Positions 3,402-57,712 of a stretch of 64,000 nucleotides of DNA are shown piece after piece. Position 1 is the stretch's first letter. Every line of letters begins with the position of its first letter. This DNA comes from Candidatus Poseidoniaceae archaeon (GTDB taxonomy: Archaea; Thermoplasmatota; Poseidoniia; Poseidoniales; Poseidoniaceae): assembly GCA_049606035.1 (NCBI GenBank), contig JBMYVD010000001.1, positions 34,244 to 98,243 on the forward strand, given 5' to 3'. Made by a program: the position numbers and the translations under genes. The notes beneath the pieces were generated by a model. It ran no database searches. It saw only the letters and a list, made by a program, of their open reading frames with translations, and was not told where the DNA came from.

Positions 3402-5306
3402 ATGAGACTTAGTTTCAAAGAAATGAAGGATGCGATAGCAAAAATTGTTCCCAAGGACATCCAGTACGATGTTGATTTGGAAGCAGGAGACATCTCCATT
3501 GTTACTACAACCCCTGATGCGTTTGGCGGAGGAGATGGACTAGTTGGAAAAATCGCTAAGAAAATCAAGCGAAGAATCGTACTCAGGCCTCACGAATCGA
3601 TCATGAAAGGTGAGGCTGAAACAGAGGAGTTTATTCGAGATTTAATCGAAGACGTCGCTGGAATAGACTCGATTTATTTCGATTCTTGTTACTGTGAAGT
3701 AACTGTAATCTGTAACAACCCTGGTGAGGCAGTTGGTAGAAGAGGGGCAAACGCAAAAGCAATTCGTGATGAATGCGGTTGGCTGGTCAAATTTGAGAGA
3801 ACACCACCAATTTATTCCAAAACAATGCATGACATCAGAGGATATAGAGCGTCACACGCCAAGGAAAGAAGGAAACTCCTCAAGGACTTTGGATTGAATA
3901 TTTACAGGCCAAAAAGACCAGGCTCGTTTTGGGTAAGAACCACTGCATTGGGTTCATACAGAGAAGTAGGCCGTGCATGCCACCTAGTTACTTCAAACGA
4001 AAGTAGAGTCATGATAGACGTTGGTGTAAACATCGCATCTGATACAGACCCAATGCCTTACTTTACTGCTCCAGAGGCACTACCGATGGAGAAAATGGAT
4101 GCTGTCATCTTAACTCACGCACACTTAGACCATGCCGGAATGTTACCAGTTCTATTCAGATATGGCTACAGGGGGCCTGTCTACTGTACTCCTCCAACCA
4201 GAGACATGATGTTACTGCTTCAATCCGACTACCTCAAAGTTGGCGGTTCTGAAGGAAAGAGAGCACCTTACGATATGGAAGACATTCGAACTTGTATGAG
4301 GCACGTTATCGATGTTGATTGGGGACAGACAGTTGATATCGCACCCGATATGAAATTGACATTCCATAACGCAGGACACATTCTTGGTTCTTCATCCGTC
4401 CACTTACACGTTGGCGACGGTAAGCACAACATCGTATTCTCTGGCGACCAAAAATATGAGAAATCATGGCTATTTGATGCAGCTAACACAAGATTCCCAA
4501 GATGTGAGACACTTGTTATCGAATCAACTTACGGTGCATCTGGTGATTTCCAACCGAGCAGAGAAGAAGCGACCCAAGAACTCCAGGATATTGTTAGCCG
4601 AACTATCAAGCGTGGTGGAAAGTTGATATGTCCTGTTTTCGCAGTTGGGCGGTCACAGGAGGTTATGATAGCAATTGATGAATTATTCAGATCTGGTGCC
4701 ATAAAACCTGTACCAGTTTATCTTGATGGAATGATTCAAGAAGCCACAGCGATTCATTCTTCACACCCCAATTACCTTACTCAAGCACTCAGGAAGAGTC
4801 TCTTGAAAGACGATGGAAATAATCCATTCACTAGTGAGTGGTTCCGTCCAGTTCAAGGCAGAGAGATGAGAGAATCGATTGTAATGGATGGAAGCCCATG
4901 TATCGTCTTAGCAACTAGCGGTATGATGAATGGAGGTCCGGTAATGAACTACTTCCAAAACTGGGCACACGAACCAAGAAACTCTCTTTGCTTCGTGGGT
5001 TACCAAGCTGAAGGAACACTTGGGCGAAGACTGCAGAAAGGTTTCAGTGAAGTACCAATGGTAATCAATGGACAGACAGAGATCGTGAAAATAGGTTGCG
5101 AGATGGCAACAATCGATGGATTCAGTGGTCACTCCGACAGAAGGCAGCTGCTGGAATTCATTGAGAATATGAGTCCAAGACCAAAGAATGTTATTTGTCA
5201 TCATGGTGACTACTTCAAATGCAACGAACTTGGAAGAACCCTAAGAGAGAAATTCAAGGTGAGAACATACGCTCCTCAGAATCTTGAAACGATCAGATTA
5301 TCCTGA
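3402..5306 (+). CDS. aCPSF1/FttA: KH-domain plus beta-CASP metallo-beta-lactamase RNase (archaeal transcription termination factor)
   Basis: N-terminal KH region; HAHLDHAG MBL motif; 634 aa, typical of aCPSF1. Confidence 0.9.
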   Translation: MRLSFKEMKDAIAKIVPKDIQYDVDLEAGDISIVTTTPDAFGGGDGLVGKIAKKIKRRIVLRPHESIMKGEAETEEFIRDLIEDVAGIDSIYFDSCYCEVTVICNNPGEAVGRRGANAKAIRDECGWLVKFERTPPIYSKTMHDIRGYRASHAKERRKLLKDFGLNIYRPKRPGSFWVRTTALGSYREVGRACHLVTSNESRVMIDVGVNIASDTDPMPYFTAPEALPMEKMDAVILTHAHLDHAGMLPVLFRYGYRGPVYCTPPTRDMMLLLQSDYLKVGGSEGKRAPYDMEDIRTCMRHVIDVDWGQTVDIAPDMKLTFHNAGHILGSSSVHLHVGDGKHNIVFSGDQKYEKSWLFDAANTRFPRCETLVIESTYGASGDFQPSREEATQELQDIVSRTIKRGGKLICPVFAVGRSQEVMIAIDELFRSGAIKPVPVYLDGMIQEATAIHSSHPNYLTQALRKSLLKDDGNNPFTSEWFRPVQGREMRESIVMDGSPCIVLATSGMMNGGPVMNYFQNWAHEPRNSLCFVGYQAEGTLGRRLQKGFSEVPMVINGQTEIVKIGCEMATIDGFSGHSDRRQLLEFIENMSPRPKNVICHHGDYFKCNELGRTLREKFKVRTYAPQNLETIRLS

Positions 5307-13229: not shown

Positions 13230-14225
13230 TCACTCAAGGAGGCGAGCGACGATATCAGCCTTAGTTCCAGAAGTTGCAACTCCTGCAGCCTTTGCCTTCT
13301 CAACCAACTCATCCTTCTTCAGTTTCATTAGTGAAGCCTCGGTTTCAGCCGGTGCTTCTTCAGCGACTTCTTCGACTTCTTCTTCAGGTTCTGCAGCAGG
13401 TTCGACCTCTTCTTCTGAAGGTGCTTCAACAACTTCTTCTTTCTCAGAGATTGACTCCATTGCTTCTGCTGCTGCTAGTAGACCAGCTTCTTCACCGTCA
13501 TCTGCATCATCTTCTTCGGCAGCCGCTAGTGCTGCGGCTTTCTTTGCCTTGAGTTCTGCTTCTTGGCGAGACTCTTCAGCATGGATTTCGTCTAGAGTTG
13601 GTCCCTTTTCGGTAATTACACCAGATTGCAATAGTTGGCTCTTGCGGATTACAACATTTCTGCAAGGGTAAATTGCCTTTACTGCGTTTCTAATCTCTGT
13701 TTCTAGGTCGCCTCCGAGCATTGCTTCTTGCAACTTAGCATAAGTAGACTTTGCAGCGAAAGAGCGAATGATTTCAGCGGACTTAGCACGCATTGCTTGC
13801 TTGACTGATGTTTGGCATCTTCGCTCTGTGATCATAAGTGGCTTCATTCTTACTAGGAAACCATCGGTGGTTACAACATCTACTACGTCGTCGATTTTTC
13901 CTCTGTATCTTCGAATTTGACGACGTGTGTGGTCGGATTGGTGTGCGTGTCCTACGAATGTAGTTAGTGCATCTTGACCAACTACTTCGGTCACTCTGAA
14001 TCTTAGAAGGACGTGCATCTTAGTGAAGTCGCCACTGAATTCTTGCTGTGTCATTTCATAGACACGGCCCATGATGTGCTCATCTGTCTCACCGAGAGTT
14101 TCTCCTATTCGCTTGAAGTTCCATGGATGTCGTGGTGCACGGATTGTGAACCATCGCTTGTTCTTCCACTTGTCACGCTGCTTACGTGCTGCTGCACGTG
14201 CCTTTGCACTCATCTTCTTCGCCAT
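13230..14225 (-). CDS. rps3ae: Ribosomal protein S3Ae (eS1) with about 130-aa acidic linker and C-terminal SAP-like motif
   Basis: MAKK..KWKNKRWF..IDDVVDVVTTDGFLVRMKP core; the tail ends with a SAP-like motif (sequence in the finding). Confidence 0.85.
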   Translation of the reverse strand: MAKKMSAKARAAARKQRDKWKNKRWFTIRAPRHPWNFKRIGETLGETDEHIMGRVYEMTQQEFSGDFTKMHVLLRFRVTEVVGQDALTTFVGHAHQSDHTRRQIRRYRGKIDDVVDVVTTDGFLVRMKPLMITERRCQTSVKQAMRAKSAEIIRSFAAKSTYAKLQEAMLGGDLETEIRNAVKAIYPCRNVVIRKSQLLQSGVITEKGPTLDEIHAEESRQEAELKAKKAAALAAAEEDDADDGEEAGLLAAAEAMESISEKEEVVEAPSEEEVEPAAEPEEEVEEVAEEAPAETEASLMKLKKDELVEKAKAAGVATSGTKADIVARLLE

Positions 14226-23258: not shown

Positions 23259-24089
23259 ATGGATGCGAACGACCTTCTCGCAGTCTCACCTAAACTTCTT
23301 GCTCAAGCAATTCTGCACCGTAGAGAAAGGATTGCAGAGATGATTCCAAGCGATTTAGAAGAACGGAAGGAGGAGCTACAAACCGCTGAACCAATGGCTA
23401 AAAACGCCAGAGAAGAGCGCGACAAAATCAACTCAAAGGTAGCCAATTTGAAGAATGAAAGGAACACGGCACAGAAGGAAGCCCGTCAACTGTTCGAAAG
23501 GGCTAATGAGATTCGGGAACAACTCATTGCAGAAGGCGGATTGAAGAATCCAGACCCAAAGTGGGCAAAGGACAAATTGTCTGCGAAATTGCAATCTCTG
23601 GAAAATCAACTAGAAACAAGCGCTGGCACTCACAAGACCGAAGAGAAATTCATCAATGAAATGAAGTCTCTGATCAGAGAACATGAAGAATGGGTAGAGG
23701 AGAGAACATCATCACAGCCTCTTGTCAAAGAAATGAAAGATGCAAGGTCAAAGGCTCGAAAACTATTGGACTCTGCTCAGAAAGCGCACGATGCGATGGT
23801 TGAATTGGTAAAATCAAACGAGGAAATGCACGAATCTTACGTCAAGTGGGAAGATGCAAGGGCCAGAGCTAGGTCTCGTACATCGAGACTTGAAAATGCA
23901 CTAAGTTCCAGTCAGGACGCTTTACAGTTCTGGAAAAACAGAGTTGAGGAAGATAACTTCAACGACCTACTCACAGATTCGGTTAGAGTAAGAGAAGGAG
24001 GTCCTTCATCCAAATCAATTGCAAGAGCAAAGAAGGCCGAAAGAGAAGCAGAGGCTAAACAAAACTCAGCAGGAGTTGAGGAAGAATGA
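23259..24089 (+). CDS. Archaeal coiled-coil protein, COG1340-like, paralog B (start trimmed to MDANDLL to leave a divergent promoter region)
   Basis: Coiled-coil; KLSAKLQSLENQLETSAGTHKTEEKFINEMKSL central motif. Confidence 0.6.
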   Translation: MDANDLLAVSPKLLAQAILHRRERIAEMIPSDLEERKEELQTAEPMAKNAREERDKINSKVANLKNERNTAQKEARQLFERANEIREQLIAEGGLKNPDPKWAKDKLSAKLQSLENQLETSAGTHKTEEKFINEMKSLIREHEEWVEERTSSQPLVKEMKDARSKARKLLDSAQKAHDAMVELVKSNEEMHESYVKWEDARARARSRTSRLENALSSSQDALQFWKNRVEEDNFNDLLTDSVRVREGGPSSKSIARAKKAEREAEAKQNSAGVEEE

Positions 24090-26170
24090 GCGAAGTCTGC
24101 GAGATTACTGGATTGTCAAAGGGTGACGCGACAAAATTATCCTACCTACATAAGCACATTACTCAGGGTAGCGAAATACCAATTCCGGATGAAAAGTCAT
24201 TGAGTGGATTCATCAAACCTTTAGAGAACACTGTTTCCTCCAACAGAATCCACAACAGTGAGCAAAAGAGGAAAGATAGTTTGCTAAAACACTTAGAGAA
24301 AAGCATTGCTTCAAAGTTTGAGGGAGCAAAACTTTCTCCATTTGGCTCCGCAGAGAGCGGACTTTCCCTTAAAGGAGGAGATTTTGACCTGTGCCTACAA
24401 ATCCCGAACGCTGACGAAAAGAAAACCATCAAACGAATAGGTGGAATGCTAAGAGGTCAAGGTATGGAGAAAGTACAGACAATTACCAGAGCAAAGGTAC
24501 CTATAGTCAAGTTCATTGACCCTCGAAGTGGCCTAAATGTTGACATCTCAATCAACAATTCACTAGCATTGTACAACACTAAATTGCTATCTTCATACGC
24601 CAAAATGGACAAGCGAGTGAAGGATCTTGCAATTTGTGTTAAGCACTGGGCCTTACACAGAAATGTTTCAGATTCGGTAAATGGAACACTATCATCATAC
24701 GCATGGTCAATCCTTGTAATCAACCACTTACAAGAGCAACAGGTGATCCCAAACCTGCAAAGTGGAGAGGATAGAACCATAATCGAGATAGACGGAAAAG
24801 AATTTGACATTACAGTGAATGAAGATGCTTCTCTTGCTCAACCAAGTCAACAAAATATCGCAGAATTAGCAATGTCATTTTTCAGAAATTATGCAACGAA
24901 GGACTGGGAAAATGAAGTGATTTCTATTCGAAATGGTAAATCCATCTCAAGAGACGAAAAGGGATGGATGAATGAAAATCCAACAGCACTAGAGATTTAC
25001 AACAGCGATAAGGAAAATCCGGGAAAGATGGGAGAGCACCATCTAGCTATTGAAGACCCATTTGAGACCGACCATGACCTGTGCAGGGTTGTTCGCGCCG
25101 AAGGTGAATTACGGATTAGAAATGAATTACTCAGGGCTGCAGAGTTGTTTGGAAGCGGCTCTACTTGGAAGGAAATCTGCGAAACCGTAGACGCTGATAG
25201 ATTGAAAGGCATGGAACCAGTTGACATTTTCCACGATCTGCGTGATAAAAACGACGACTTGGTTAGAAACATGTTGGAGAAAACCAAAGCAGAAATGGAT
25301 GCCGTTGACAGGCTGATAGACGCATTGGAATCTGAGCGACAGTCCACACTTAGAATGGCTAAAGCAATGCGTGGAGTTATTGAGGAAACTTCAGACTTGA
25401 GGAAGGAACACAAAGCGATTATCACAGGCCTAAAATCCAGGAACAAAGAAATCGATGAAATCAAAGTAAAAAGAGACAAAATCAACTCTGACATCATCCT
25501 CCCAATACACATGATTGAGGATGAATTATCCAAAGTTTACAATAGACTTACTGAGGAATTAGACATCCACAGAGTTCCTTCTTTAGCCAAAGAAAAGGAA
25601 CAGTTTTCTTGGTTCATGGAATTGCAAGCAATGCACGGTAAGGCAAGAGAGGCAAGTGAACTCCATCACAGATTCGTCGAGTTGGTAAAAGAGCAGAAAG
25701 AGGAAATCAAGAAATTGAAGATTTATGAAACCAAACACGATGATGCAACCGCAAAACTGCTCCAAGATGAACCGATGTTAAAGGACAAAAACATCAACTC
25801 CAAGGAAGTCGGTTCTTACGACAGACGTGTTCACAATATTCAGAGGGCTTTGAGACAGAGGCGAGGGGAAATGCACAAACTTCGCCGAGAAGCTGGCCGT
25901 TTGGATGCTTGGCTGCGCAAAAAATCTGGCGACCAAAACCGTGGGAGAGGTCGTGGCAAAGGAAACCGCAGAGGCCAAAAACCGAGAGAAAAGAAAGAGG
26001 AGTCTGGCCCCATGACCCTGGGGGACATTTCCGGGTTACTATCTGGCATGGGTACAGGATCATCGAGCAAAAGAACAAGGAAGGTCAGTTCCAAGAAGGC
26101 TGGAATGCGCAAAATGGGCAACTTAGGTGCACACAGAGGCTCTAGAAGTCAATTCAAAAAGAAAGAGTGA
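24086..26170 (+). CDS. Cid1/GLD-2/Trf4-like terminal nucleotidyltransferase (Pol-beta NTase plus PAP/OAS1 substrate-binding domain) fused to coiled-coil and RG-rich basic tail
   Basis: FGSAESGLSLKGGDFDL; AKVPIVKF; NVDISINN; NTKLLSSY; VKHWA; GTLSSYAWSILVINHLQ; C-terminal RGRGRGKGNRRG. Confidence 0.8.
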   Translation: MSEVCEITGLSKGDATKLSYLHKHITQGSEIPIPDEKSLSGFIKPLENTVSSNRIHNSEQKRKDSLLKHLEKSIASKFEGAKLSPFGSAESGLSLKGGDFDLCLQIPNADEKKTIKRIGGMLRGQGMEKVQTITRAKVPIVKFIDPRSGLNVDISINNSLALYNTKLLSSYAKMDKRVKDLAICVKHWALHRNVSDSVNGTLSSYAWSILVINHLQEQQVIPNLQSGEDRTIIEIDGKEFDITVNEDASLAQPSQQNIAELAMSFFRNYATKDWENEVISIRNGKSISRDEKGWMNENPTALEIYNSDKENPGKMGEHHLAIEDPFETDHDLCRVVRAEGELRIRNELLRAAELFGSGSTWKEICETVDADRLKGMEPVDIFHDLRDKNDDLVRNMLEKTKAEMDAVDRLIDALESERQSTLRMAKAMRGVIEETSDLRKEHKAIITGLKSRNKEIDEIKVKRDKINSDIILPIHMIEDELSKVYNRLTEELDIHRVPSLAKEKEQFSWFMELQAMHGKAREASELHHRFVELVKEQKEEIKKLKIYETKHDDATAKLLQDEPMLKDKNINSKEVGSYDRRVHNIQRALRQRRGEMHKLRREAGRLDAWLRKKSGDQNRGRGRGKGNRRGQKPREKKEESGPMTLGDISGLLSGMGTGSSSKRTRKVSSKKAGMRKMGNLGAHRGSRSQFKKKE

Positions 26171-31227: not shown

Positions 31228-32043
31228 CATACCTTCTTTGCCAACCTTCCAACCTAATTCGGTTACTGGCGTATCATCTCTACACAGTGGGTTTGTGTGG
31301 TTTAAGTGGATGAATACTACTTCGCCATCACCTTCTCTACGCTCACCTAACATCTGTAGAGTTTGCTCAACGGGAGGATGTGGAACTTTACTCTGGTCAC
31401 GATGTTTGAGTTCATCTGCACTGTAGAATGTACCATCTATGAGTGCAATATCTACCTCTAAATGGTTCAACCACGCTCTCAAATCATGACCTCGTAGTGT
31501 TTCTTGCCATGTATCATGGTCAGGTAAGAATAGCAGAGTTTTCTCTGCCTTGATTAGATATGCATGCATATCAGATAACTCATCTCTGTGAGGGACTTCG
31601 ATTGCTTCAACAATTACTCCAGGTAATTGATACACACTTGCCACTCTAGGGATGAAAACTCCATCCGAGAGTAAAGTGGACCAGTGGGGTGTTCTCTCGA
31701 TTAGATCGAGCATCATCTTTGAGCAATACAAATTGACGCCTTTGGCTGCCATGGTTTCTTTCCCAAACAAACCCAAACCGTCGACGTGACCAATGTGGGC
31801 ATGAGTAAGGAAAACTGATTCCACTGAATTACAGCCCCAAATTCTCAGTTGATCACCAAGATGGCGGGTCGCTTCGAAGAGATGTTTACCACCTTCTGCA
31901 TCTGTTAAACCGATTGATACCGGATACCTCTGTTCAAGGTCTGAACAGCAATCACAACCCACCTGAGGAACTCCTCCATCTTGAGCAGAACCCAAGAGAG
32001 TGACTTCCACCACGAAGACCAACCTCAGATCCGGCGAACCCAT
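31210..32043 (-). CDS. PqqB-like metallo-beta-lactamase-fold protein (start trimmed to MGSPDLR)
   Basis: [36 protein letters not shown], terminal GMSFSL resemble PqqB. Confidence 0.6.
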
Positions 32044-35000
32044 TGACGGGTCGTTGGGTCTCGAGTATACCAAGCACCGCTTGAAGCAGGGTACTCCAAC
32101 CACTCATTTCCATCGCTTCGAATCGAGCCAACCTCGTACATTGTTGGCCCTGTCGGTGCAGCAGGTTGAGGCATAACAGCCTGATTACCTGGTAGCATTG
32201 CAGGGTCTGGAGAAGCCGCTTGCACAACAGGTTGAACACTTGGTTGCTGATATTGTGAATAATCAGGCTGAGCATTCATGTTTGGCATAGCAGGTTGGGC
32301 GTACATGTTAGGCATGGCTGGTTGGGCATTCATGTTAGGCATAGCAGGTTGAGATACTGCTCCTGCCAAGTTGATACCAGCGTCCCAATCCTTATCCTCT
32401 CCCTTTCCTCTTACCCTTGAGATAACCAAAGCGAGGACAATCAATGCTAGAATAACGCCGACAGATATGCCTCCGTATTTGAGAATACTTCCACTCGATT
32501 CTTCGATTACAGCTTCACAGCCGTTTTCCTTTGCAACGCCAGCAATCTCGGGGCATTCATCAGCATTCTTACCAACCGGGTTATCTCCAAATCCGTCCAT
32601 ATCTGTATCATTCCATTGACTGGATTCTTCAGGGAATGCATCAATAATATCGGCCCAGCCATCGTTATCTGTATCTACACATCCAAGAACATCTCCTTTG
32701 AATGAGAATCCTGTTTCATCAGGGCATGAATCTGGACTTGTTCCATCAGGGTTGTCTCCATATCCATCGCTGTCACTGTCTGCCCACTGAGTTGGGTCAA
32801 TCGGTTTCCAATCTGTACCCACTTCTGGGTCACCCCAACCGTCTCCATCATAGTCCGGGCAACCAACAACATCGATTGTTGAGTTTCCGTTTACAAGAGG
32901 ACAGTCATCATTTCCGTCTGCGATTCCGTCTTTATCTGTGTCAAGATATTCATCTGGATCCGAAGGGAATGCATCCATAAAGTCAGCCCAGCCATCACTA
33001 TCGCTGTCTGGACATCCGAGGATATCTTCTTGCCATGAGTCTCCTGGCAATGTTGGACATGCATCTTGATCTCTTGCGTACTGATAGTATTCACCGGGCC
33101 AGTTTTCATTTCTTTCAGTCCAAGAAAGGTTTCCGTAATTATCACCAAAACCGTCTTCATCCCAATCTGACCATTGTGTATTATCTGTTGGGAAAGCATC
33201 CGCACCGTCTTCTATTGTCCAATCATCATCTGCAGCGGAATATCCATCATTATCTGTATCTGGGCAGCCATACCTATCCAATACAGATGTTCCTGGAATA
33301 GAGATACAATCATCAGGAGTATTCCCCTCAGGGTTGTCACCATATCCATCCCCGTCTTCATCACTCCATTGAGTAGAATCTGCGGGAAGGTCATCGATGG
33401 AATCGGCCCAACCGTCACCATCGCCATCAGGACATGCCAAAAGACCACCCAGTGTTGAGTTTCCTGACTCTTGTGGGCATGAGTCCTCTAGGTCAGCATA
33501 TCCATCACTATCTGAATCAACACATCCTGTGTATGAACCTAGGTCGGAAGTACCTGCAACCTTGTTACAATCGTCTTCTGCATCGTTAAATCCATCTCCA
33601 TCATCATCTGAATCTTCATCGGCGTCTCTACAACCATCGCCATCGATATCATTTGATGAATCTGAAGTCCACCAATTTCTTGGAGGGGTGTACGAACTTA
33701 GGCAACCGTCATCTTCATCTTCAACTCCGTCATTGTCATCATCGGTATCTTCGCTTGAATCTTTGCAACCATCATTGTCGAAATCTGTGGTTGAATCGCT
33801 AGTCCAATTCCATGCACCACCTCTCGGGCAATCATCACCTGAGTTGTCAGTTATTCCATCATTATCATCGTCATTGTCACACTCATCGCCTGCTCCATCC
33901 AAATCTGAATCTGTTTGAAGTGGATTATTGGTGTTAGGGCAATTATCCTCAATGTCGATAACACCGTCGTTATCTGAATCCGCGTTGTTTATAGGGTCAA
34001 GGGACCAAATAACCAAATCCAATCCTGCACTGCTAGTTACAGATTGTGTTCCTTTGTTAATTGTTGATTGGAACGAGCCAAAGGCATACGGAATGTCGGT
34101 ATCATTGACCGTTAGGTCAGCAAAGAGGTCATCGGCTGTACTTCCTAAGTTTTCGACCCAATCCCAATCACCATTTGCAGTTAATTTAGCCATGTAGAGG
34201 TCAAGTCCACCATTAGATGTTGCATAATTAACTCCGAAATCTGCAGAACCTGATATTAATCCTCCCACCATTATGTCATCGTTTGAGGTTACTTCAACAG
34301 CATATGCTCTTTCTGTAGAGGCGCTACTACCTGCACTCACAGCCCAATCTGTTTGACCGTTGTTTGCAACTTTAACAACATAAGCGTCGCCATTACCCTT
34401 GTCTGTTAGTGTGTTTTGATTACCTGCATCCATCGAACCAAGGAACACACCACTGACGATTATATCGTCATTAGAGTTGATAGTGATATCTTCAGGGAGG
34501 TTGATCTCTCCTGCAGCGCCAACAAACCCTTTGACACTTTGAACCACTCCGCCCTGACTCCACTTCACTAGGATTGTGTCAGCCTGACTAAGAGCTTGAT
34601 GCGTTTTCCCATTTGCTGAAAATGTACCAGATGTTGTTCCTGTTTGCCAGATGTTACCGTATGAATCAACTACAACTCCTGATGAACGGTCATCACCGAT
34701 TCCACCCGCAGTAGAGACTGAGTTTGTTGTTCCAGAATTTGTATTAAAAATTCCCATAAACATCTCATTATCTGAACTAGTATGAGTTATTCCACCAAAA
34801 TCTGTTGGTCCTTGATGCGTCCCAACTACGACTAAATTTCCTGAAATTGGGTCAAAATCAATACCCGTAACAATGCTATTGTTGGAATCATTATTGGTTG
34901 CAGTACTGAATGAAGTTGCCCACAACCATTGGCCACTGGCGTCGAGTTTTGCTATGAAACCATCAAAATTTTGAGATTGTAATACTGGTGAATTTGATGA

Positions 35001-35444
35001 TGAGCCAAAGACTACCTGACCGAATACCGTTCCGCCAATGTAGATATCTCCGGCCAAATCGGTTGTCATGTCATTTATCAAGGTCAAGCCTTGAGTGGCA
35101 GAAGGCATTACTGCCCATTGCCAATTCCCTTGCTCATCAACCATAGCGACATATGAATCAGCATCCAAAAATTGGTTGTAACCTGATGTTGCTTGTAACT
35201 GAATTCCACCAAAATTTAGATTGTTTCTTGTATCACCTGCAACGACTATCCCTTGAGGGGTCCATTCAATCTCTGACCCATTTACGTGGCCTGTAGCTGA
35301 ACCTGCAGAAATGAGTAATTCTGGTTCAGAATCAGCAAAAAGCACTTTGTTAGATTCAGAAAGTTCACTGTAATCGGAAACCGCAAATATGCTGCTTAGG
35401 AAAATTGCTACTATCATCACGGATATGAAGCCACGCTTGCCCAT
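32025..35444 (-). CDS. Giant surface protein (see finding 32025..32420 for domain architecture)
   Basis: N-terminal signal/TM; GD.Y..K....G...W beta-propeller repeats; DxDxDGxxDxxDxCP repeats; [20 protein letters not shown]. Confidence 0.75.
32272..32355. repeat. About 27-bp tandem repeat (3-4 copies) inside the tail-coding region, encoding AQPAMPNM(N/Y)
   Basis: catgtt(t/a)ggcat(a/g)gc(a/t)ggttgggc repeated; seen directly. Confidence 0.6.
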
Positions 35445-45125: not shown

Positions 45126-45755
45126 TCAGTTGCCCTCCACGATTAGTCTGTAAGCAACCGAAACACCAGCGGATGGTGAAGGTCTTACTACCTTGAGAAC
45201 ACGGTCTGCAAGCCATCCTGCGGGTAGAGGAATGTGCTCTTCATCGTCTGTTGACGCTGAGTCATGTGCTCTTTCAGTGGTTTCCTTAATCACTTGAACA
45301 ACTGGATCGGTAATCAGAATCTTTGGAAGAAGTTCCTTAGCAAGCCTTGACTCACCGGTTTCTGAATCGGTTGTCAATAGACCCCAAGGAGCGAGTTCTT
45401 CTTCCTCACTCTCAACTGGTACTAGTTCCTGGTGAGGTACAAGAACGTGGTTCAGAACGTTGAACTTGGTACCTGCCAAGTCCATGTCATCGTCATCGAG
45501 TGCTTTTCTTGAAATAGTGATTTTTCGGCTTCTTCGCTTCTGTCTGCGCTGACCTAGTTCTGCAAGGGCATTCATTGCGCCGGTGAAAATTTCATCGTCT
45601 TTTGAGACACCGAGAACTGACGCAATCTCGTCGGCCGGCATGGCCTTGATATCTGTCATGTTTCGGTCTGTTGCAAGTTTGTGAGCATATTCTTCTGCTA
45701 TGCCCATTTCCATCAAACGCTTCTTAGTTGCCGACTTTACTACCAAAAAAAACAC
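45126..45755 (-). CDS. rpoH: RNA polymerase subunit H (Rpb5-like C-terminal domain) with about 120-aa N-terminal extension paralogous to the RpoA'' N-terminus
   Basis: C-terminal HVLVPHQEL..LPKILITDPVVQ..VLKVVRPSPSAGVSVAYRLIV; N-terminal [23 protein letters not shown]. Confidence 0.8.
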   Translation of the reverse strand: MFFLVVKSATKKRLMEMGIAEEYAHKLATDRNMTDIKAMPADEIASVLGVSKDDEIFTGAMNALAELGQRRQKRRSRKITISRKALDDDDMDLAGTKFNVLNHVLVPHQELVPVESEEEELAPWGLLTTDSETGESRLAKELLPKILITDPVVQVIKETTERAHDSASTDDEEHIPLPAGWLADRVLKVVRPSPSAGVSVAYRLIVEGN

Positions 45756-45797
45756 ACCCCGCTTTGCCCTAATACACCAGGCCGGTATCTTGTCAGG

Positions 45798-45871
45798 CGG
45801 GCCTGACGGGGTTCGAACCCGCGACCGTCCGGTTAAAAGCCGGACGCTCTACCTGACTAAGCTACAGGCCC
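45798..45871 (-). tRNA. tRNA-Lys (anticodon UUU)
   Basis: Manual fold: acceptor GGGCCTG/CAGGCCC, anticodon stem TCCGG/CCGGA with loop CTTTTAA, T-loop TTCGAAC; CCA not encoded. Confidence 0.8.
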
Positions 45872-48330: not shown

Positions 48331-49653
48331 ATGGAGGAGGATTCTCAACAAGAATTCAAGCAAATTGGAATGCTCCAGCTAATCCGTAATATGCTCTCTC
48401 CAAGGACCTTGCCACACATTATCATGATAGCAATTATATCATCCATTCTGCTATTTTTGGTCAGCACGCAAGAGGTCCTTGTTGCAATGTCTTTCATATC
48501 CTTGTCAATTTCCTATGTCGTAGTATCAATGCTATCTAACAATTCAATGATACAAAGTCTAACCAAATTACCTGAAGAAAAAGGCGATTCACAATGGATT
48601 GTGCGTTTCTTATTCAGTTTTCGAATAACGATAGTACCGATTCTAATTGCTGCAGTAATTGTTGGACTATTATGGAGTTTAACTGGAGGAAATGACAACG
48701 GTTGGATATCTCCTGCTCTGGCTTCCTTGTTTATCGTCTGGTCGATTGCCCAAGCTGCTTCGTTTAGAACAGGAATGGTGGAGTGGTTGGCGAATGGACT
48801 CGGAGATGCGAAACTTCATACTTACCAAGAGAAGATATCAACTGCTTCACAAGTTGTAGTTGTCCAAGTTTTTGCCTTGGTGATATTATGGCTTGGCCAA
48901 ATAATTAGCCAGGCAGAGAAAATGACGCTTCAGGATGCGCTTCTAGGCGGAATCGCTTTCATCATTGTCAGCGTTATTCTCCAAGCTATCACGCTTTGGT
49001 TGACCAGAAGTGAGAGAGAGGCATCAGGGAATGAAAAGGGAATGGCTGCATTTTCATTCAAGTGGATGATAGTAGCACAATTATTCATCACATGGCACGC
49101 ATTTAGCATATACCGCCGTACTGCAATGAGCCCGTCTGACCTATCAACAATTATCGAAGAAGGTCTTCTAATGGCATTCACGGTAATTTTCGCAGTCTGG
49201 TCACTTACAACATACACAGTTAGAGATGGCAAGCGACTGATATCTGAACATGCATCATTACCCTTAGGAATTTCATTTGGATACGCCTATGCAGGTTCTG
49301 TTGCAATGTTGACTGGAACGTTTGATAGTCTAAAGGAAGTCATGATTTTTGGACACGTATTGTCGATTTGTGCAATGATGCTATTGTTGAGACCTACCTT
49401 AAGAACTAGCAGAATGACTTCTGAGATGTTCCTCAAAGCAATAAATGTCGACATTACAATGCCAGAAGAAACTGAAGAGGTTGAGCCCGAACAGGACGAA
49501 GATTCAGAGGATGACAATTCAGAAACAGAAGGAGAAACTGTTGATGAAGAATGGCAAGAAGACGGAGAAATCGATTGGGAGAAAGGCGTTGACATCTCTG
49601 AGGGAACCGACTGGGATGGAAAAGATTCTGAACAGGAAGAAGAATCATACTAG
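48331..49653 (+). CDS. Polytopic membrane protein with acidic C-terminal tail, hypothetical
   Basis: About 10 TM helices; C-terminal E/D-rich 70 aa. Confidence 0.5.
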   Translation: MEEDSQQEFKQIGMLQLIRNMLSPRTLPHIIMIAIISSILLFLVSTQEVLVAMSFISLSISYVVVSMLSNNSMIQSLTKLPEEKGDSQWIVRFLFSFRITIVPILIAAVIVGLLWSLTGGNDNGWISPALASLFIVWSIAQAASFRTGMVEWLANGLGDAKLHTYQEKISTASQVVVVQVFALVILWLGQIISQAEKMTLQDALLGGIAFIIVSVILQAITLWLTRSEREASGNEKGMAAFSFKWMIVAQLFITWHAFSIYRRTAMSPSDLSTIIEEGLLMAFTVIFAVWSLTTYTVRDGKRLISEHASLPLGISFGYAYAGSVAMLTGTFDSLKEVMIFGHVLSICAMMLLLRPTLRTSRMTSEMFLKAINVDITMPEETEEVEPEQDEDSEDDNSETEGETVDEEWQEDGEIDWEKGVDISEGTDWDGKDSEQEEESY

Positions 49654-56920: not shown

Positions 56921-57712
56921 ATGGATTACGACAGTCTTACTCTTCTTGAACTCAAGACAGTGTGCAAAGACAGAGGTCTCAAGGTTAGTGGTAACAAGGC
57001 TGAAGTCGTAATCAGACTAATGGAAGATGATGAATCAAAAATGCCTCAGTCTGTGTCTATTCCTCAACAGCAAGTCAATTATGGTCAGCAGCAAATGTAT
57101 GGACAACAGATGTATGGCGGGCAACCTCAACAAATCTTCATCACAAATAACACAACCAGTGTGGTTCAAATTACTGGATTCCTAATCATCTTATACGGTT
57201 TGTTTAGGCTCTTTTGGGGGATGTTCGCTGATGAAGACGAATACTTCTTTGTCTTATTTATCGGAACAGCGTTCATTTTCAGTGGGATACTATCTGTTCA
57301 AGGGTACCGAGTTGGACTGTATTTCGCCTTGATTACCCTAGTCATTTCGGGATTGCTTTCGCTCATCTATATCGACAAACAAGGCAGCTTTTTGTCAGTA
57401 GGACAAGGGACAGGTGAAGGATCGGTTGGTTTCTCATTATTCTGTTCAGGATTCTGTATGCTAATTGTAGCATTACCATTACTAACTGCAGATCCCTCAA
57501 ATTTCAGAGATGGTTCGCCAAAATATCTCAGATCGTTAATCGATACAGCAGATTGGTTCTCACCGATACCACTGCTGTGGGGAGGTAGAAAAGACGTTGA
57601 AACCAAGATAGTCATCAATTGTGCACATTGCGACGCACCACTGAAAGTACCAAGTGATTACAAGGGCAAAGTAAAGTGCCCAACATGTGAAGAAAGATTC
57701 GAAATCGAGTGA
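56921..57712 (+). CDS. Membrane protein with N-terminal SAP motif, Q-rich linker, 4 TM, and C-terminal MJ0042-type zinc ribbon
   Basis: LTLLELKTVCKDRGLKVSGNKAEVVIRLMEDD; QQQVNYGQQQMYGQQMYGGQ; INCAHCDAPLKVP..KCPTCEERF. Confidence 0.6.
   Translation: MDYDSLTLLELKTVCKDRGLKVSGNKAEVVIRLMEDDESKMPQSVSIPQQQVNYGQQQMYGQQMYGGQPQQIFITNNTTSVVQITGFLIILYGLFRLFWGMFADEDEYFFVLFIGTAFIFSGILSVQGYRVGLYFALITLVISGLLSLIYIDKQGSFLSVGQGTGEGSVGFSLFCSGFCMLIVALPLLTADPSNFRDGSPKYLRSLIDTADWFSPIPLLWGGRKDVETKIVINCAHCDAPLKVPSDYKGKVKCPTCEERFEIE

What the first reader, a model, noticed from the sequence alone, without database searches (positions are those of the whole stretch)
13230..13640. Ribosomal protein S3Ae carrying a long acidic linker and a C-terminal SAP motif
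The S3Ae core (about 200 aa) is followed by about 100 aa of E/A/P-rich low complexity. The tail then ends in LMKLKKDELVEKAKAAGVATSGTKADIVARLLE, an excellent match to the SAP/Rho-N-type helix-extended loop-helix consensus L..L.V.EL...L...GL...G.K..LI.RL. SAP motifs are nucleic-acid-tethering modules, mostly eukaryotic. On a ribosomal protein this is unusual.
Basis: partly seen in the sequence, partly recalled or inferred. Interest (0 to 1): 0.6.

Follow-up and report, generated by a model that had tools for sequence, protein, structure and literature searches.

The report
Ribosomal protein eS1 with tethered SAP domain
The small-subunit ribosomal protein eS1 (S3Ae) of these abundant marine archaea really does carry a long acidic tether ending in a small SAP nucleic-acid-binding domain, and related archaea carry a different nucleic-acid-binding domain at the same position, so their ribosomes probably hold a flexible arm for nucleic acid next to the mRNA exit.

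Summary
Window 13230-14225 (minus strand) is one uninterrupted 331-aa ORF. It has an eS1/S3Ae core (Pfam E 5.5e-55; predicted fold TM 0.95 to solved P. furiosus eS1), a 96-aa extension with net charge -29, and a C-terminal SAP domain (PF02037, 30.5 bits against a cutoff of 23.9). The SAP domain is confidently predicted as helix-loop-helix, and its best structural matches are SAP domains.

The organism belongs to Ca. Poseidoniaceae (Marine Group II). The fusion is not a one-off. About 70 species-level Poseidoniales genomes keep it at a syntenic locus, and a second, deeply divergent family has it too. dN/dS of the SAP (0.04) matches the ribosomal core (0.03). The linker drifts in sequence but stays 77-113 aa long and acidic.

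One Poseidoniales sublineage, seen in three independent assemblies, replaced only the terminal SAP with a (HhH)2 domain. Other Thermoplasmatota eS1 tails end in HhH2, or are purely acidic or lysine-rich. Solved archaeal ribosomes lack any such tail.

Published structures place eS1 on the wall of the mRNA-exit/Shine-Dalgarno chamber. The most likely function is therefore a flexible, low-affinity arm that binds nucleic acid in trans. Whether the ligand is DNA or RNA is unresolved. Databases auto-annotate the protein, but I found no paper describing it. I class it as a new variant of a known kind, of moderate interest.

The parts
13230..14225 (-). Complete gene for eS1/S3Ae with C-terminal extension (331 aa plus stop codon at 13230-13232)
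   Evidence: Single ORF. 100% identical protein in public data named 'SAP domain-containing protein [Ca. Poseidoniaceae archaeon]'. Syntenic in 71/80 related loci.
13626..14225 (-). eS1/S3Ae globular core, residues 1-200 (net charge +19)
   Evidence: Pfam PF01015 at residues 13-200, E 5.5e-55. NCBIfam PRK04057 190.8 bits. AF2 pLDDT about 90. Foldseek to P. furiosus eS1 9qf4_Ac: TM 0.95, rmsd 1.3 A over 184 columns.
13509..13625 (-). Proximal conserved segment of the extension, residues 201-239 (GPTLDEIHAEE...KAKKAAALAAA), predicted long helix 211-239
   Evidence: Conserved across Poseidoniaceae (alignment). dN/dS 0.095-0.139. AF2 helix with pLDDT 58-71. phmmer alignments to some eukaryotic eS1 chains run to query residue about 238.
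13452..13484 (-). Short conserved helix inside the acidic region, residues 248-258 (LLAAAEAMESI); function unknown
   Evidence: Motif [ILVM][LIV][ADE]AA[EV][AP][LMSV] found in 36 of 70 orthologues, including Thalassarchaeaceae and the HhH variant. AF2 helix 248-258 at low confidence.
13338..13451 (-). Variable, disordered E/A/P-rich acidic spacer, residues 259-296 (residues 240-247 have the same character)
   Evidence: AF2 pLDDT below 50 for 239-250 and 258-293. dN/dS 0.25-0.38, but length and charge are kept: the whole extension is 77-113 aa with net charge -10 to -39 in 70 orthologues. Weak 9/12-nt tandem repeats at 13351-13403.
13233..13337 (-). SAP domain, residues 297-331 (helix 304-314, extended loop, helix 322-330). 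Invariant residues: L307, K312, G315, S319, G320, K322, R328, L329
   Evidence: Pfam SAP 30.5/36.3 bits against cutoff 23.9. AF2 pLDDT 85-89. Foldseek top hits are SAP domains of Tho1, E1B-AP5, Hcc-1, MKL1 and PIAS1 at rmsd 0.6-1.3 A. dN/dS 0.040, against 0.027 for the core. Column conservation.

Best explanation
This is the resident eS1 (S3Ae) protein of the small ribosomal subunit of a Marine Group II archaeon. Fused to it is a roughly 130-aa C-terminal appendage: a conserved helix, a strongly acidic disordered spacer, and a terminal SAP domain. Published archaeal 30S structures show that the eS1 core sits on the platform and forms one wall of the mRNA-exit/Shine-Dalgarno chamber. I infer that the negatively charged spacer is repelled by rRNA and so projects the SAP domain tens of angstroms, up to about 100-250 A, away from the subunit. 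There the SAP would make weak, sequence-independent contacts with nucleic acid that is not part of the ribosome core, acting like a fishing line. SAP and the (HhH)2 module that replaces it in relatives are classically duplex-DNA backbone binders, so my preferred ligand is chromosomal DNA at or near transcribing genes. That would keep 30S subunits or ribosomes close to nascent transcripts. Structured or duplex RNA on the 5' side of the mRNA is nearly as likely. What is shown: the gene, domain identities, conservation, purifying selection, module swapping and the position of the eS1 core. What is inferred: ribosome incorporation of this orthologue, projection of the tether, nucleic-acid binding and the identity of the ligand.
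For: Identity and integrity are supported. This appears to be the resident copy: the locus is syntenic (PdxS upstream, PNP and MazG downstream) in most of 80 species-level Poseidoniales genomes, with one hit per genome and no tail-less close paralogue among the hits. The tail is translated and selected: SAP dN/dS is 0.040 against 0.027 for the core in the window's clade, and 0.093 against 0.082 in the others. The linker is relaxed in sequence (0.25-0.38) but its length (77-113 aa) and charge (-10 to -39) are retained. The fold is SAP, and the basic residues K312, K322 and R328 are invariant. The terminal modules look functionally interchangeable. A Poseidoniales sublineage keeps the same proximal helix, the LAAAEA motif and the acidic spacer but ends in HHH_5 (45.9 bits) instead of SAP. 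It sits at the orthologous locus and is seen in three independent assemblies. Nine of the 150 nearest 50%-identity representatives carry HHH_5 and eight carry SAP, while others have K-rich tails. Labelled HhH-bearing members are Thermoplasmata or Thermoplasmatota. For position, eS1 together with uS11 and h26 lines the SD-duplex chamber, and bS6/bS18 occupy that place in bacteria (PMC9932298, PMC7005279). SAP is a low-affinity DNA-binding module, often on a disordered linker, as in Ku70 (PMC9399289). The organism uses SD-like motifs (23 of 54 ORFs against an 11% background).
Against: No binding, structural or proteomic data exist for this protein. All solved archaeal eS1 chains (184-222 aa) lack a tail, so the exit point and reach of the tether are inferred. 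The commonest long eS1 tails in relatives are purely acidic with no binding module (29 of 101), so the ancestral role of the tail is probably not nucleic-acid binding. One genome (L013) has a repeat tail without SAP. The tail as a whole is strongly anionic, which disfavours nucleic-acid contact, and the SAP itself carries only +2. In the window's clade, two loop lysines that are conserved elsewhere are replaced (GKPVSGKK becomes GVATSGTK). SAP and HhH domains can also mediate protein-protein contacts. RNA binding by SAP is poorly documented (PMC9399289).
Confidence: 0.4

Rival explanations
1. The tail is an mRNA-capture arm. The tethered SAP (or HhH2) binds the 5' leader or structured upstream mRNA, or clamps the SD:anti-SD duplex, next to the exit chamber. 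It would then play the role that flexible bS1 plays in bacteria, or that eIF3a/eS26 contacts play in eukaryotes, helping recruitment or standby binding of mRNAs.
For: The eS1 core lines the SD-duplex chamber. The exit channel is a known hotspot for lineage-specific additions such as eS26, aS33 and the eS17 extension. SD-like motifs are enriched upstream of genes in this window. There are structural precedents for SAP contacting RNA, namely 3'hExo-histone mRNA stem-loop complexes among the fold hits. Archaea lack bS1 (established knowledge).
Against: SAP and HhH2 are best documented on duplex DNA, not single-stranded mRNA, and direct RNA binding by SAP 'remains elusive' (PMC9399289). A tether of at least 77 aa, conserved in length, is not needed to reach a chamber that the core itself lines. 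There is no OB/S1 domain.
Confidence: 0.3
2. The acidic tail is the functional unit, and the SAP/HhH2 is only an accessory or an intramolecular partner. The polyanionic tail would tune platform or exit-site electrostatics or mimic nucleic acid, analogous to the RimK-added oligo-glutamate tail on bacterial bS6, which occupies the eS1 position. The SAP would fold back on the tail or dock on rRNA in cis, for example during assembly or hibernation.
For: Purely acidic tails are the most common long eS1 tail in relatives (29 of 101 representatives; tree). bS6/bS18 sit where eS1 sits, and the eS1 C-domain resembles bS6 (PMC9932298). RimK polyglutamylates the bS6 C-terminus and remodels the proteome (PMC4741518, PMC7343187). 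Acidic tails that autoinhibit DNA-binding domains are well known, for example HMGB1 (own knowledge).
Against: The SAP is as constrained as the ribosomal core and is replaced specifically by another nucleic-acid-binding fold rather than simply lost. AF2 shows no confident docking of the SAP on the core or the tail, although pTM is only 0.59 and this is weak evidence.
Confidence: 0.15
3. The tail is a factor-recruiting or moonlighting arm. The terminal domain would bind a protein partner, as in a P-stalk-like recruitment arm, or eS1 would have an extraribosomal DNA-related role.
For: SAP and HhH2 domains can mediate protein contacts: PIAS1 SAP is deposited as a 'p53 binding domain' (1v66), and NusA HhH repeats bind proteins (own knowledge). 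An acidic flexible hinge plus a conserved terminal element resembles the archaeal P-stalk design (own knowledge). A conserved LLAAAEAM helix of unknown role sits inside the linker.
Against: Two unrelated folds (SAP and HhH2), plus K-rich tails in other lineages, share nucleic-acid backbone binding rather than any obvious protein partner. No partner gene co-varies in the loci examined; the flanks are housekeeping PdxS, PNP and MazG.
Confidence: 0.1
4. The feature is an artefact: either a mis-assembled or mis-called fusion of S3Ae with a neighbouring SAP gene, or a chance SAP-like pattern in a helical K/E/A-rich tail.
For: Low-complexity GAA-rich DNA does cause assembly breaks and frameshifts in some MAGs (L012, L040, L045, L061). 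The window's SAP is a divergent variant scoring only 30.5 bits.
Against: The same single ORF is seen in more than 100 90%-identity clusters and about 70 species genomes, including Mb-scale contigs. Indels in the linker preserve the frame. There is strong purifying selection on the SAP. The score is above the Pfam cutoff, with 51-58 bits in orthologues. The AF2 fold is confident and matches solved SAP domains.
Confidence: 0.01

Closest known systems
Canonical archaeal eS1/S3Ae (e.g. P. furiosus 9QF4/4V6U, P. abyssi 6SW9/7ZHG, T. kodakarensis 6SKF, M. acetivorans 9O17, S. solfataricus 9FHL)
   Same: Same family and fold for residues 1-200 (34-36% identity, TM 0.93-0.96). By homology, the same place on the platform lining the SD-duplex chamber.
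   Different: All solved archaeal chains are 184-222 aa and end right after the core. None has the 130-aa helix, acidic spacer and SAP appendage.
Eukaryotic eS1 (RPS3A/Rps1), about 255-265 aa
   Same: Also has a C-terminal extension beyond the archaeal core. phmmer alignments to some plant and animal chains run into the proximal helix, up to query residue about 238. eS1 contacts exit-side ligands such as the HCV IRES (PMC9932298) and eIF3 (own knowledge).
   Different: The eukaryotic extension is about 50 aa, without a long polyanionic spacer or a folded nucleic-acid-binding end domain.
eS1-(HhH)2 fusions in other Thermoplasmatota and in one Poseidoniales sublineage (database entries; I found no paper)
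   Same: Same overall design: eS1 core, E/A/K-rich spacer, and a small non-sequence-specific nucleic-acid-binding end module. The Poseidoniales HhH variant even shares the proximal helix and the LAAAEA motif.
   Different: The terminal fold is a helix-hairpin-helix pair (Pfam HHH_5), not SAP.
Ku70 C-terminal SAP on a disordered linker; DEK and SAF-A (SAP plus acidic stretches)
   Same: A SAP domain presented on a flexible linker as a low-affinity auxiliary DNA contact (PMC9399289). DEK SAP is among the fold hits.
   Different: Those are eukaryotic chromatin or DNA-repair proteins. Here the carrier is a core ribosomal protein of an archaeon.
Bacterial bS6 with its RimK-added oligo-glutamate C-terminal tail
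   Same: bS6 occupies the eS1 position on the platform, and the eS1 C-domain resembles bS6 (PMC9932298). Both carry a poly-acidic C-terminal tail at that site (PMC4741518, PMC7343187).
   Different: The bS6 tail is short, added post-translationally and regulated, and has no end domain. Here the tail is genome-encoded, about 100 aa long and capped by SAP.
Bacterial bS1
   Same: A flexible nucleic-acid-binding appendage at the mRNA-exit side of the 30S platform (own knowledge). It is a possible functional analogue.
   Different: No homology. bS1 is a separate protein made of OB-fold S1 repeats that bind single-stranded RNA. No S1 domain is present here.

Membership tests
Ribosomal protein eS1 / S3Ae (PF01015) | Profile match above the curated threshold over the whole domain | tested here: met
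   PF01015 186.3 bits against cutoff 29.3, residues 13-200 matching model positions 3-189 of 191. NCBIfam equivalog PRK04057 scores 190.8, just below its 198 cutoff.
Ribosomal protein eS1 / S3Ae (PF01015) | eS1 three-dimensional fold | tested here: met
   AF2 core pLDDT about 90. Foldseek to ten archaeal ribosome structures: TM(target) 0.93-0.96, rmsd 1.2-1.8 A.
Ribosomal protein eS1 / S3Ae (PF01015) | It is the genome's resident, single-copy orthologue rather than a paralogue | tested here: inconclusive
   One hit per genome in 80 species genomes, conserved synteny, and no tail-less close homologue among the hits. Whole genomes could not be scanned, and the locus search used query-specific peptide patterns.
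Ribosomal protein eS1 / S3Ae (PF01015) | Physical incorporation into the 30S subunit at the platform | not testable with these tools
   Inferred from homology to chains in solved ribosomes.
SAP domain (PF02037) | Profile match above Pfam's gathering score | tested here: met
   30.5 bits in the full protein and 36.3 bits for the tail alone, against cutoff 23.9. Orthologues score 51.3 bits (P0121) and 58.3 bits (P0192).
SAP domain (PF02037) | Helix-extended loop-helix fold with the conserved L..L...G....G.K..L..RL pattern | tested here: met
   AF2 helices 304-314 and 322-330, pLDDT 85-89. Top Foldseek hits are SAP domains at rmsd 0.6-1.3 A, but E-values exceed 0.6 because the domain is only about 35 aa. 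L307, K312, G315, S319, G320, K322, R328 and L329 are invariant in 70 orthologues.
SAP domain (PF02037) | Binds nucleic acid (classically DNA) | not testable with these tools
Inferred from family knowledge (PMC9399289) and from replacement by HhH2 in orthologues.
Rho_N (PF07498) / HeH-LEM | Profile match to Rho_N or HeH | tested here: not met
   Rho_N is not reported even at E<=10 for the window protein. HeH scores 21.3 bits, below its 28.9 cutoff, and only in P0192. The Rho N-terminal domain 1a8v ranks only 13th among fold hits.
Bacterial bS1-type mRNA-binding ribosomal protein | S1 (OB-fold) RNA-binding repeats | tested here: not met
   No S1 domain in the Pfam scan. The resemblance is positional and functional only.

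The most novel reading that the evidence does not exclude
The ribosomes of the ocean's most abundant planktonic euryarchaea may carry a built-in DNA-binding tether. The eS1 tail would anchor small subunits or translating ribosomes to the chromosome near transcribing genes. That would be a ribosome-intrinsic route to nucleoid localisation or transcription-translation coupling, with interchangeable end modules (SAP or HhH2) across Thermoplasmatota. It would also be an archaeal, genome-encoded counterpart of the regulated acidic tail on bacterial bS6.
Probability: 0.3. Interest if true: 0.8.

Novelty: new variant of a known kind. Interest (0 to 1): 0.55.

Why it matters
Ribosomal proteins are among the most conserved proteins known, and every solved archaeal ribosome has a tail-less eS1. 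This work shows that a whole class of globally abundant, uncultured marine archaea keeps a folded nucleic-acid-binding domain on a long polyanionic tether on a protein that lines the mRNA-exit/Shine-Dalgarno chamber. The tail is under selection as strong as on the ribosomal core. Relatives swap in a different nucleic-acid-binding fold at the same place.

If the arm binds DNA or mRNA in trans, it would be a new way for ribosomes to find or stay with their templates in archaea, which lack bS1. It would also point to the platform/exit side as an evolutionary docking site for such functions, alongside eS26, aS33, eIF3 and the bS6-RimK system. On the practical side, the long tail makes NCBI's equivalog model miss its cutoff, so many records are named only 'SAP domain-containing protein' or 'hypothetical protein'. 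The repeat-rich linker also breaks or frameshifts MAG assemblies of a gene that is widely used as a phylogenetic marker.

Tried and rejected
- **Rho_N/HeH as the family:** rejected. There is no Rho_N hit at E<=10, and Rho's N-domain is only a low-ranked fold neighbour.
- **Fusion or assembly artefact, or chance motif:** rejected.
- **Homologue search with the SAP tail alone, to trace its origin:** I used the remaining search on the divergent P0192 family instead.
- **Literature:** four full-text searches found no paper describing S3Ae/eS1 with SAP or HhH, or tail diversity of eS1 in Thermoplasmatota or MGII. An MGII metatranscriptome paper gives no gene-level information on S3Ae.
- **Taxonomy of the HhH-bearing representatives via cluster members and encoding contigs:** almost no names returned. 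A homologue search gave Thermoplasmata, Thermoplasmatota and Ca. Saliniplasma labels.
- **Suspected HhH motif in the N-terminal extension of RpoH in this window:** not supported by Pfam.
- **Opposite-strand ORF 13274-13552 (+, 92 aa, L/Q/P-rich):** a shadow of the GAA-rich coding strand, not a gene.
- **Rfam and tRNA scans:** only a tRNA-Lys, nothing bearing on the finding.
- **Caveats on two analyses:** dS is saturated (about 1.3-1.7), so dN/dS values are only comparable between segments, not absolute. The neighbour-joining tree is rough and I used it only for the qualitative distribution of tail types.
Full report
**1. The observation**

Window 13230..14225 on the minus strand is one 331-aa ORF with an ATG start and no internal stop. 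Pfam places Ribosomal_S3Ae at residues 13-200 (186.3 bits, E 5.5e-55). It places SAP (PF02037) at residues 299-331, scoring 30.5 bits in the full protein and 36.3 bits for the tail alone, against a gathering cutoff of 23.9. Rho_N is not reported even at E<=10.

The finding's coordinates 13230-13640 correspond to residues 196-331. The 96 residues between the core and the SAP carry net charge -29. The core carries +19 and the SAP +2.

One correction applies: the extension is not uniformly low complexity.
- Residues about 207-239 (GPTLDEIHAEE…KAKKAAALAAA) are conserved and predicted helical.
- Residues 248-258 (LLAAAEAMESI) form a second short conserved helix.
- Only residues about 240-247 and 259-296 are variable E/A/P-rich spacer.

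**2. Structure**

AlphaFold2 was run on a 74-sequence alignment and gave the following:

| Region | Prediction | pLDDT |
|---|---|---|
| Residues 1-200 (core) | folded | about 90 |
| 211-239 | long helix | 58-71 |
| 258-293 | disordered | below 50 |
| SAP (helices 304-314 and 322-330) | helix-loop-helix | 85-89 |

The core superposes on eS1 of solved archaeal ribosomes. The match to P. furiosus 9qf4_Ac has TM 0.95 and rmsd 1.3 A. P. abyssi, S. solfataricus, T. kodakarensis and M. acetivorans are similar.

I also modelled the last 47 residues alone (mean pLDDT 80.6). The closest solved structures are SAP domains: Tho1 (rmsd 0.7 A over 34 columns), E1B-AP5, Hcc-1 (45% identity), MKL1, PIAS1, DEK and 3'hExo. 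The Rho N-domain ranks only 13th. E-values are above 0.6 because the domain is so short, although Foldseek probabilities are 0.96-0.99.

Every archaeal eS1 chain in the PDB is 184-222 aa long and lacks a tail.

**3. Organism and context**

An identical protein exists in public data, labelled 'SAP domain-containing protein [Candidatus Poseidoniaceae archaeon]'. That family belongs to Thermoplasmatota; Poseidoniia; Poseidoniales, also known as Marine Group II.

The gene is flanked upstream by PdxS and a ferredoxin, and downstream by a PNP-family phosphorylase (8 nt away) and a MazG-like protein. It is not in a ribosomal operon. SD-like motifs occur 4-18 nt upstream of 23 of 54 ORFs in the window, against an 11% background, so SD:anti-SD helices are presumably formed in this organism.

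**4. Distribution and selection**

- More than 100 clusters at 90% identity share the S3Ae+SAP architecture.
- A scan of one genome per GTDB species returned 80 loci. Nearly all are labelled as Poseidoniales or as unclassified euryarchaeal/Thermoplasmatota MAGs; two bins carry bacterial labels. The set includes the closed MG-II chromosome CM001443 and Thalassarchaeaceae, with one hit per genome.
- Seventy loci encode an intact core-extension-SAP ORF. Three more have the SAP out of frame or behind masked N runs. Several contigs break inside (APAEE)n repeats. One genome (L013) has no SAP.
- Synteny is conserved: the PNP gene lies downstream on the same strand in 71 loci.

Most Poseidoniales carry a textbook SAP (DYSSMTVAELKELLKAAGKPVSGKKADLIARLNE). 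The window's clade (L001-L011) has a divergent version in which two loop lysines are lost and lysines are gained in helix 1.

A second S3Ae family is only about 31% identical to the query and is labelled Ca. Poseidoniia, Poseidoniales or Thermoplasmatota. It has the same DYSSMKVAELKELLK…LPVSG.K.ELIERL module, sometimes followed by a further acidic tail.

Segment-wise dN/dS (dS is saturated, so only the comparison between segments is meaningful):

| Segment | Window clade | Other Poseidoniales |
|---|---|---|
| Core | 0.027 | 0.082 |
| Proximal segment | 0.095 | 0.139 |
| Spacer | 0.249 | 0.381 |
| SAP | 0.040 | 0.093 |

The SAP is therefore as constrained as the ribosomal core. The spacer drifts in sequence yet stays 77-113 aa long with net charge -10 to -39. 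This is strong indirect evidence that the tail is translated and functional.

**5. The wider pattern**

- Among the 150 nearest 50%-identity representatives of S3Ae, 8 carry SAP and 9 carry a helix-hairpin-helix pair (HHH_5, 29-58 bits against cutoff 27) at the end of a similar spacer.
- Of the 101 representatives with a complete core, 33 have almost no tail, 29 have long purely acidic tails, 9 end in HhH2, 6 are lysine-rich, 2 end in SAP, and 22 have tails of at least 20 aa that fit none of these classes.
- The named HhH-bearing proteins are from Thermoplasmata, Thermoplasmatota and Ca. Saliniplasma.
- A rough tree places long tails mainly in one Thermoplasmatota-like clade, with HhH2 scattered among acidic-tailed members.

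The most telling case is a Poseidoniales sublineage represented by L060/UBA226, whose core is 72% identical to the query. It keeps the same proximal helix, the LAAAEA motif and the acidic spacer, but ends in HHH_5 (45.9 bits) instead of SAP. It lies at the orthologous locus, between PdxS and MazG. I recovered the same architecture, with sequence differences, from two independent metagenome contigs, L082 and L083. Two unrelated small folds whose shared property is sequence-independent binding of nucleic-acid backbones are therefore interchangeable at the tip of this tether.

**6. Mechanism**

*Shown in the literature.*
- In archaeal 30S initiation complexes the SD duplex is held on one side by uS11, eS1 and h26. 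In bacteria, bS6 and bS18 occupy the place of eS1, and the eS1 C-terminal domain resembles bS6 (PMC9932298, PMC7005279).
- The exit channel is a site of lineage-specific additions such as eS26 and aS33 (PMC11698992).
- SAP domains are low-affinity DNA binders, often placed on disordered linkers as in Ku70. Direct RNA binding by SAP is poorly established (PMC9399289).

*Inferred.* The polyanionic spacer, repelled by rRNA, projects the SAP well away from the platform. A 29-residue helix plus about 65 disordered residues gives a typical reach of roughly 100 A, and more than 200 A if fully extended. There the SAP would make transient contacts with nucleic acid in trans.

*Which ligand.* I favour DNA near transcribing genes (about 0.4 for this overall explanation) for three reasons. 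Both end modules are classical duplex-DNA binders. The tether length is conserved, which argues for a distant target. A second SAP protein in this window is membrane-anchored, which suggests SAP serves as a general nucleoid anchor in this lineage.

*Rivals.*
- mRNA or structured-RNA capture at the exit side, analogous to bS1 (about 0.3).
- The acidic tail is the functional unit, analogous to the RimK-added oligo-glutamate tail of bS6 (PMC4741518, PMC7343187), with SAP as an accessory or cis-acting partner (about 0.15).
- A protein-recruiting or moonlighting arm (about 0.1).
- An artefact (about 0.01).

*Evidence against the nucleic-acid reading.* Purely acidic tails are frequent in relatives. 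The tail as a whole carries a strong negative charge. The window's clade has lost two loop lysines. No experimental data exist.

**7. Comparison with known systems and novelty**

The protein is a member of eS1/S3Ae by profile and fold, and its tail end is a member of the SAP family by profile, fold and consensus. It is not a Rho_N member and has no S1 domain.

It works like a combination of a Ku70-type tethered SAP and a bS6-type acidic platform tail. It might act like bS1.

Public databases already contain and auto-annotate the architecture, and the naming is often poor. The NCBIfam equivalog model scores 190.8, below its cutoff of 198, which fits records called only 'SAP domain-containing protein' or 'hypothetical protein'. 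Four full-text literature searches found no description of it, or of the SAP/HhH2 interchange on eS1 tails. I classify it as a new variant of a known kind.

**8. Verdict**

The feature is real, conserved and selected. The function is inferred, not shown. Interest is 0.55.

Noticed in passing
window 56921-57712 (+): A second SAP-domain protein (263 aa). It has an N-terminal SAP (Pfam 34.6 bits; MDYDSLTLLELKTVCKDRGLKVSGNKAEVVIRLME, closely resembling the canonical MGII eS1 SAP, including the DY.S cap), a Q-rich linker, several hydrophobic TM-like segments and a C-terminal CxxC…CxxC zinc ribbon. It may be a membrane-anchored nucleic-acid tether.
   Followed up: partly
window 24086-26170 (+): A 694-aa protein with Cid1/TUTase-type non-canonical poly(A)/terminal nucleotidyltransferase domains (MTPAP-like_central 109.5 bits, PAP_assoc 49 bits). 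This is a mainly eukaryotic family and is unexpected in an archaeon.
   Followed up: no
window 45126-45755 (-): RpoH at the head of the rpoH-rpoB-rpoA'-rpoA'' operon is 209 aa if the GTG start is used. The Rpb5_C domain covers only residues 98-205 and contains an insert. The roughly 95-aa N-terminal extension has no Pfam match, and a suspected HhH motif was not supported. RpoA' (1067 aa) and RpoA'' (522 aa) are also unusually long.
   Followed up: partly
L013 2995-3939; L012, L045, L061 contig ends; L040, L016, L024: In one Poseidoniaceae subclade the eS1 spacer contains perfect (APAEE)n tandem repeats. Contigs end inside them, one MAG is frameshifted, and two have masked N runs. L013 ends after the repeats with no SAP in any frame. 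Assembly of this marker gene is therefore unreliable in MAGs.
   Followed up: partly
window 13452-13484 (-) and orthologues: A conserved short helix motif, [ILV]L[AD]AAEA[ML], is embedded in the otherwise variable acidic spacer. It is present in 36 of 70 orthologues, including Thalassarchaeaceae and the HhH2 variant, and absent in others. No known motif matched and its role is unexplained.
   Followed up: partly
window 13230-14225 (-), annotation: The NCBIfam equivalog model for S3Ae scores 190.8, below its 198 cutoff. This probably explains why many public records name this ribosomal protein only 'SAP domain-containing protein' or 'hypothetical protein'.
   Followed up: yes
window 32025-35444 (-) and 48331-49653 (+): A 1139-aa extremely acidic protein (net charge -174) with thrombospondin type 3 (Ca-binding) repeats, probably a surface protein. 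Also a 440-aa protein with a highly acidic C-terminal tail and no Pfam match. The sampled proteome is acidic overall (D+E 14.1% against K+R 10.1%).
   Followed up: no
window 3402-5306 (+); 45796-45871 (-): The FttA/aCPSF1 transcription termination factor (KH_TffA, beta-CASP and RMMBL domains), and a tRNA-Lys(UUU) immediately upstream of rpoH.
   Followed up: no
P0157, P0230, P0146, P0159, P0165, P0208 (S3Ae representatives): Some distant archaeal eS1 proteins carry 60-135-aa lysine-rich (histone-H1-like) C-terminal tails instead of acidic ones. Their taxonomy was not determined.
   Followed up: no
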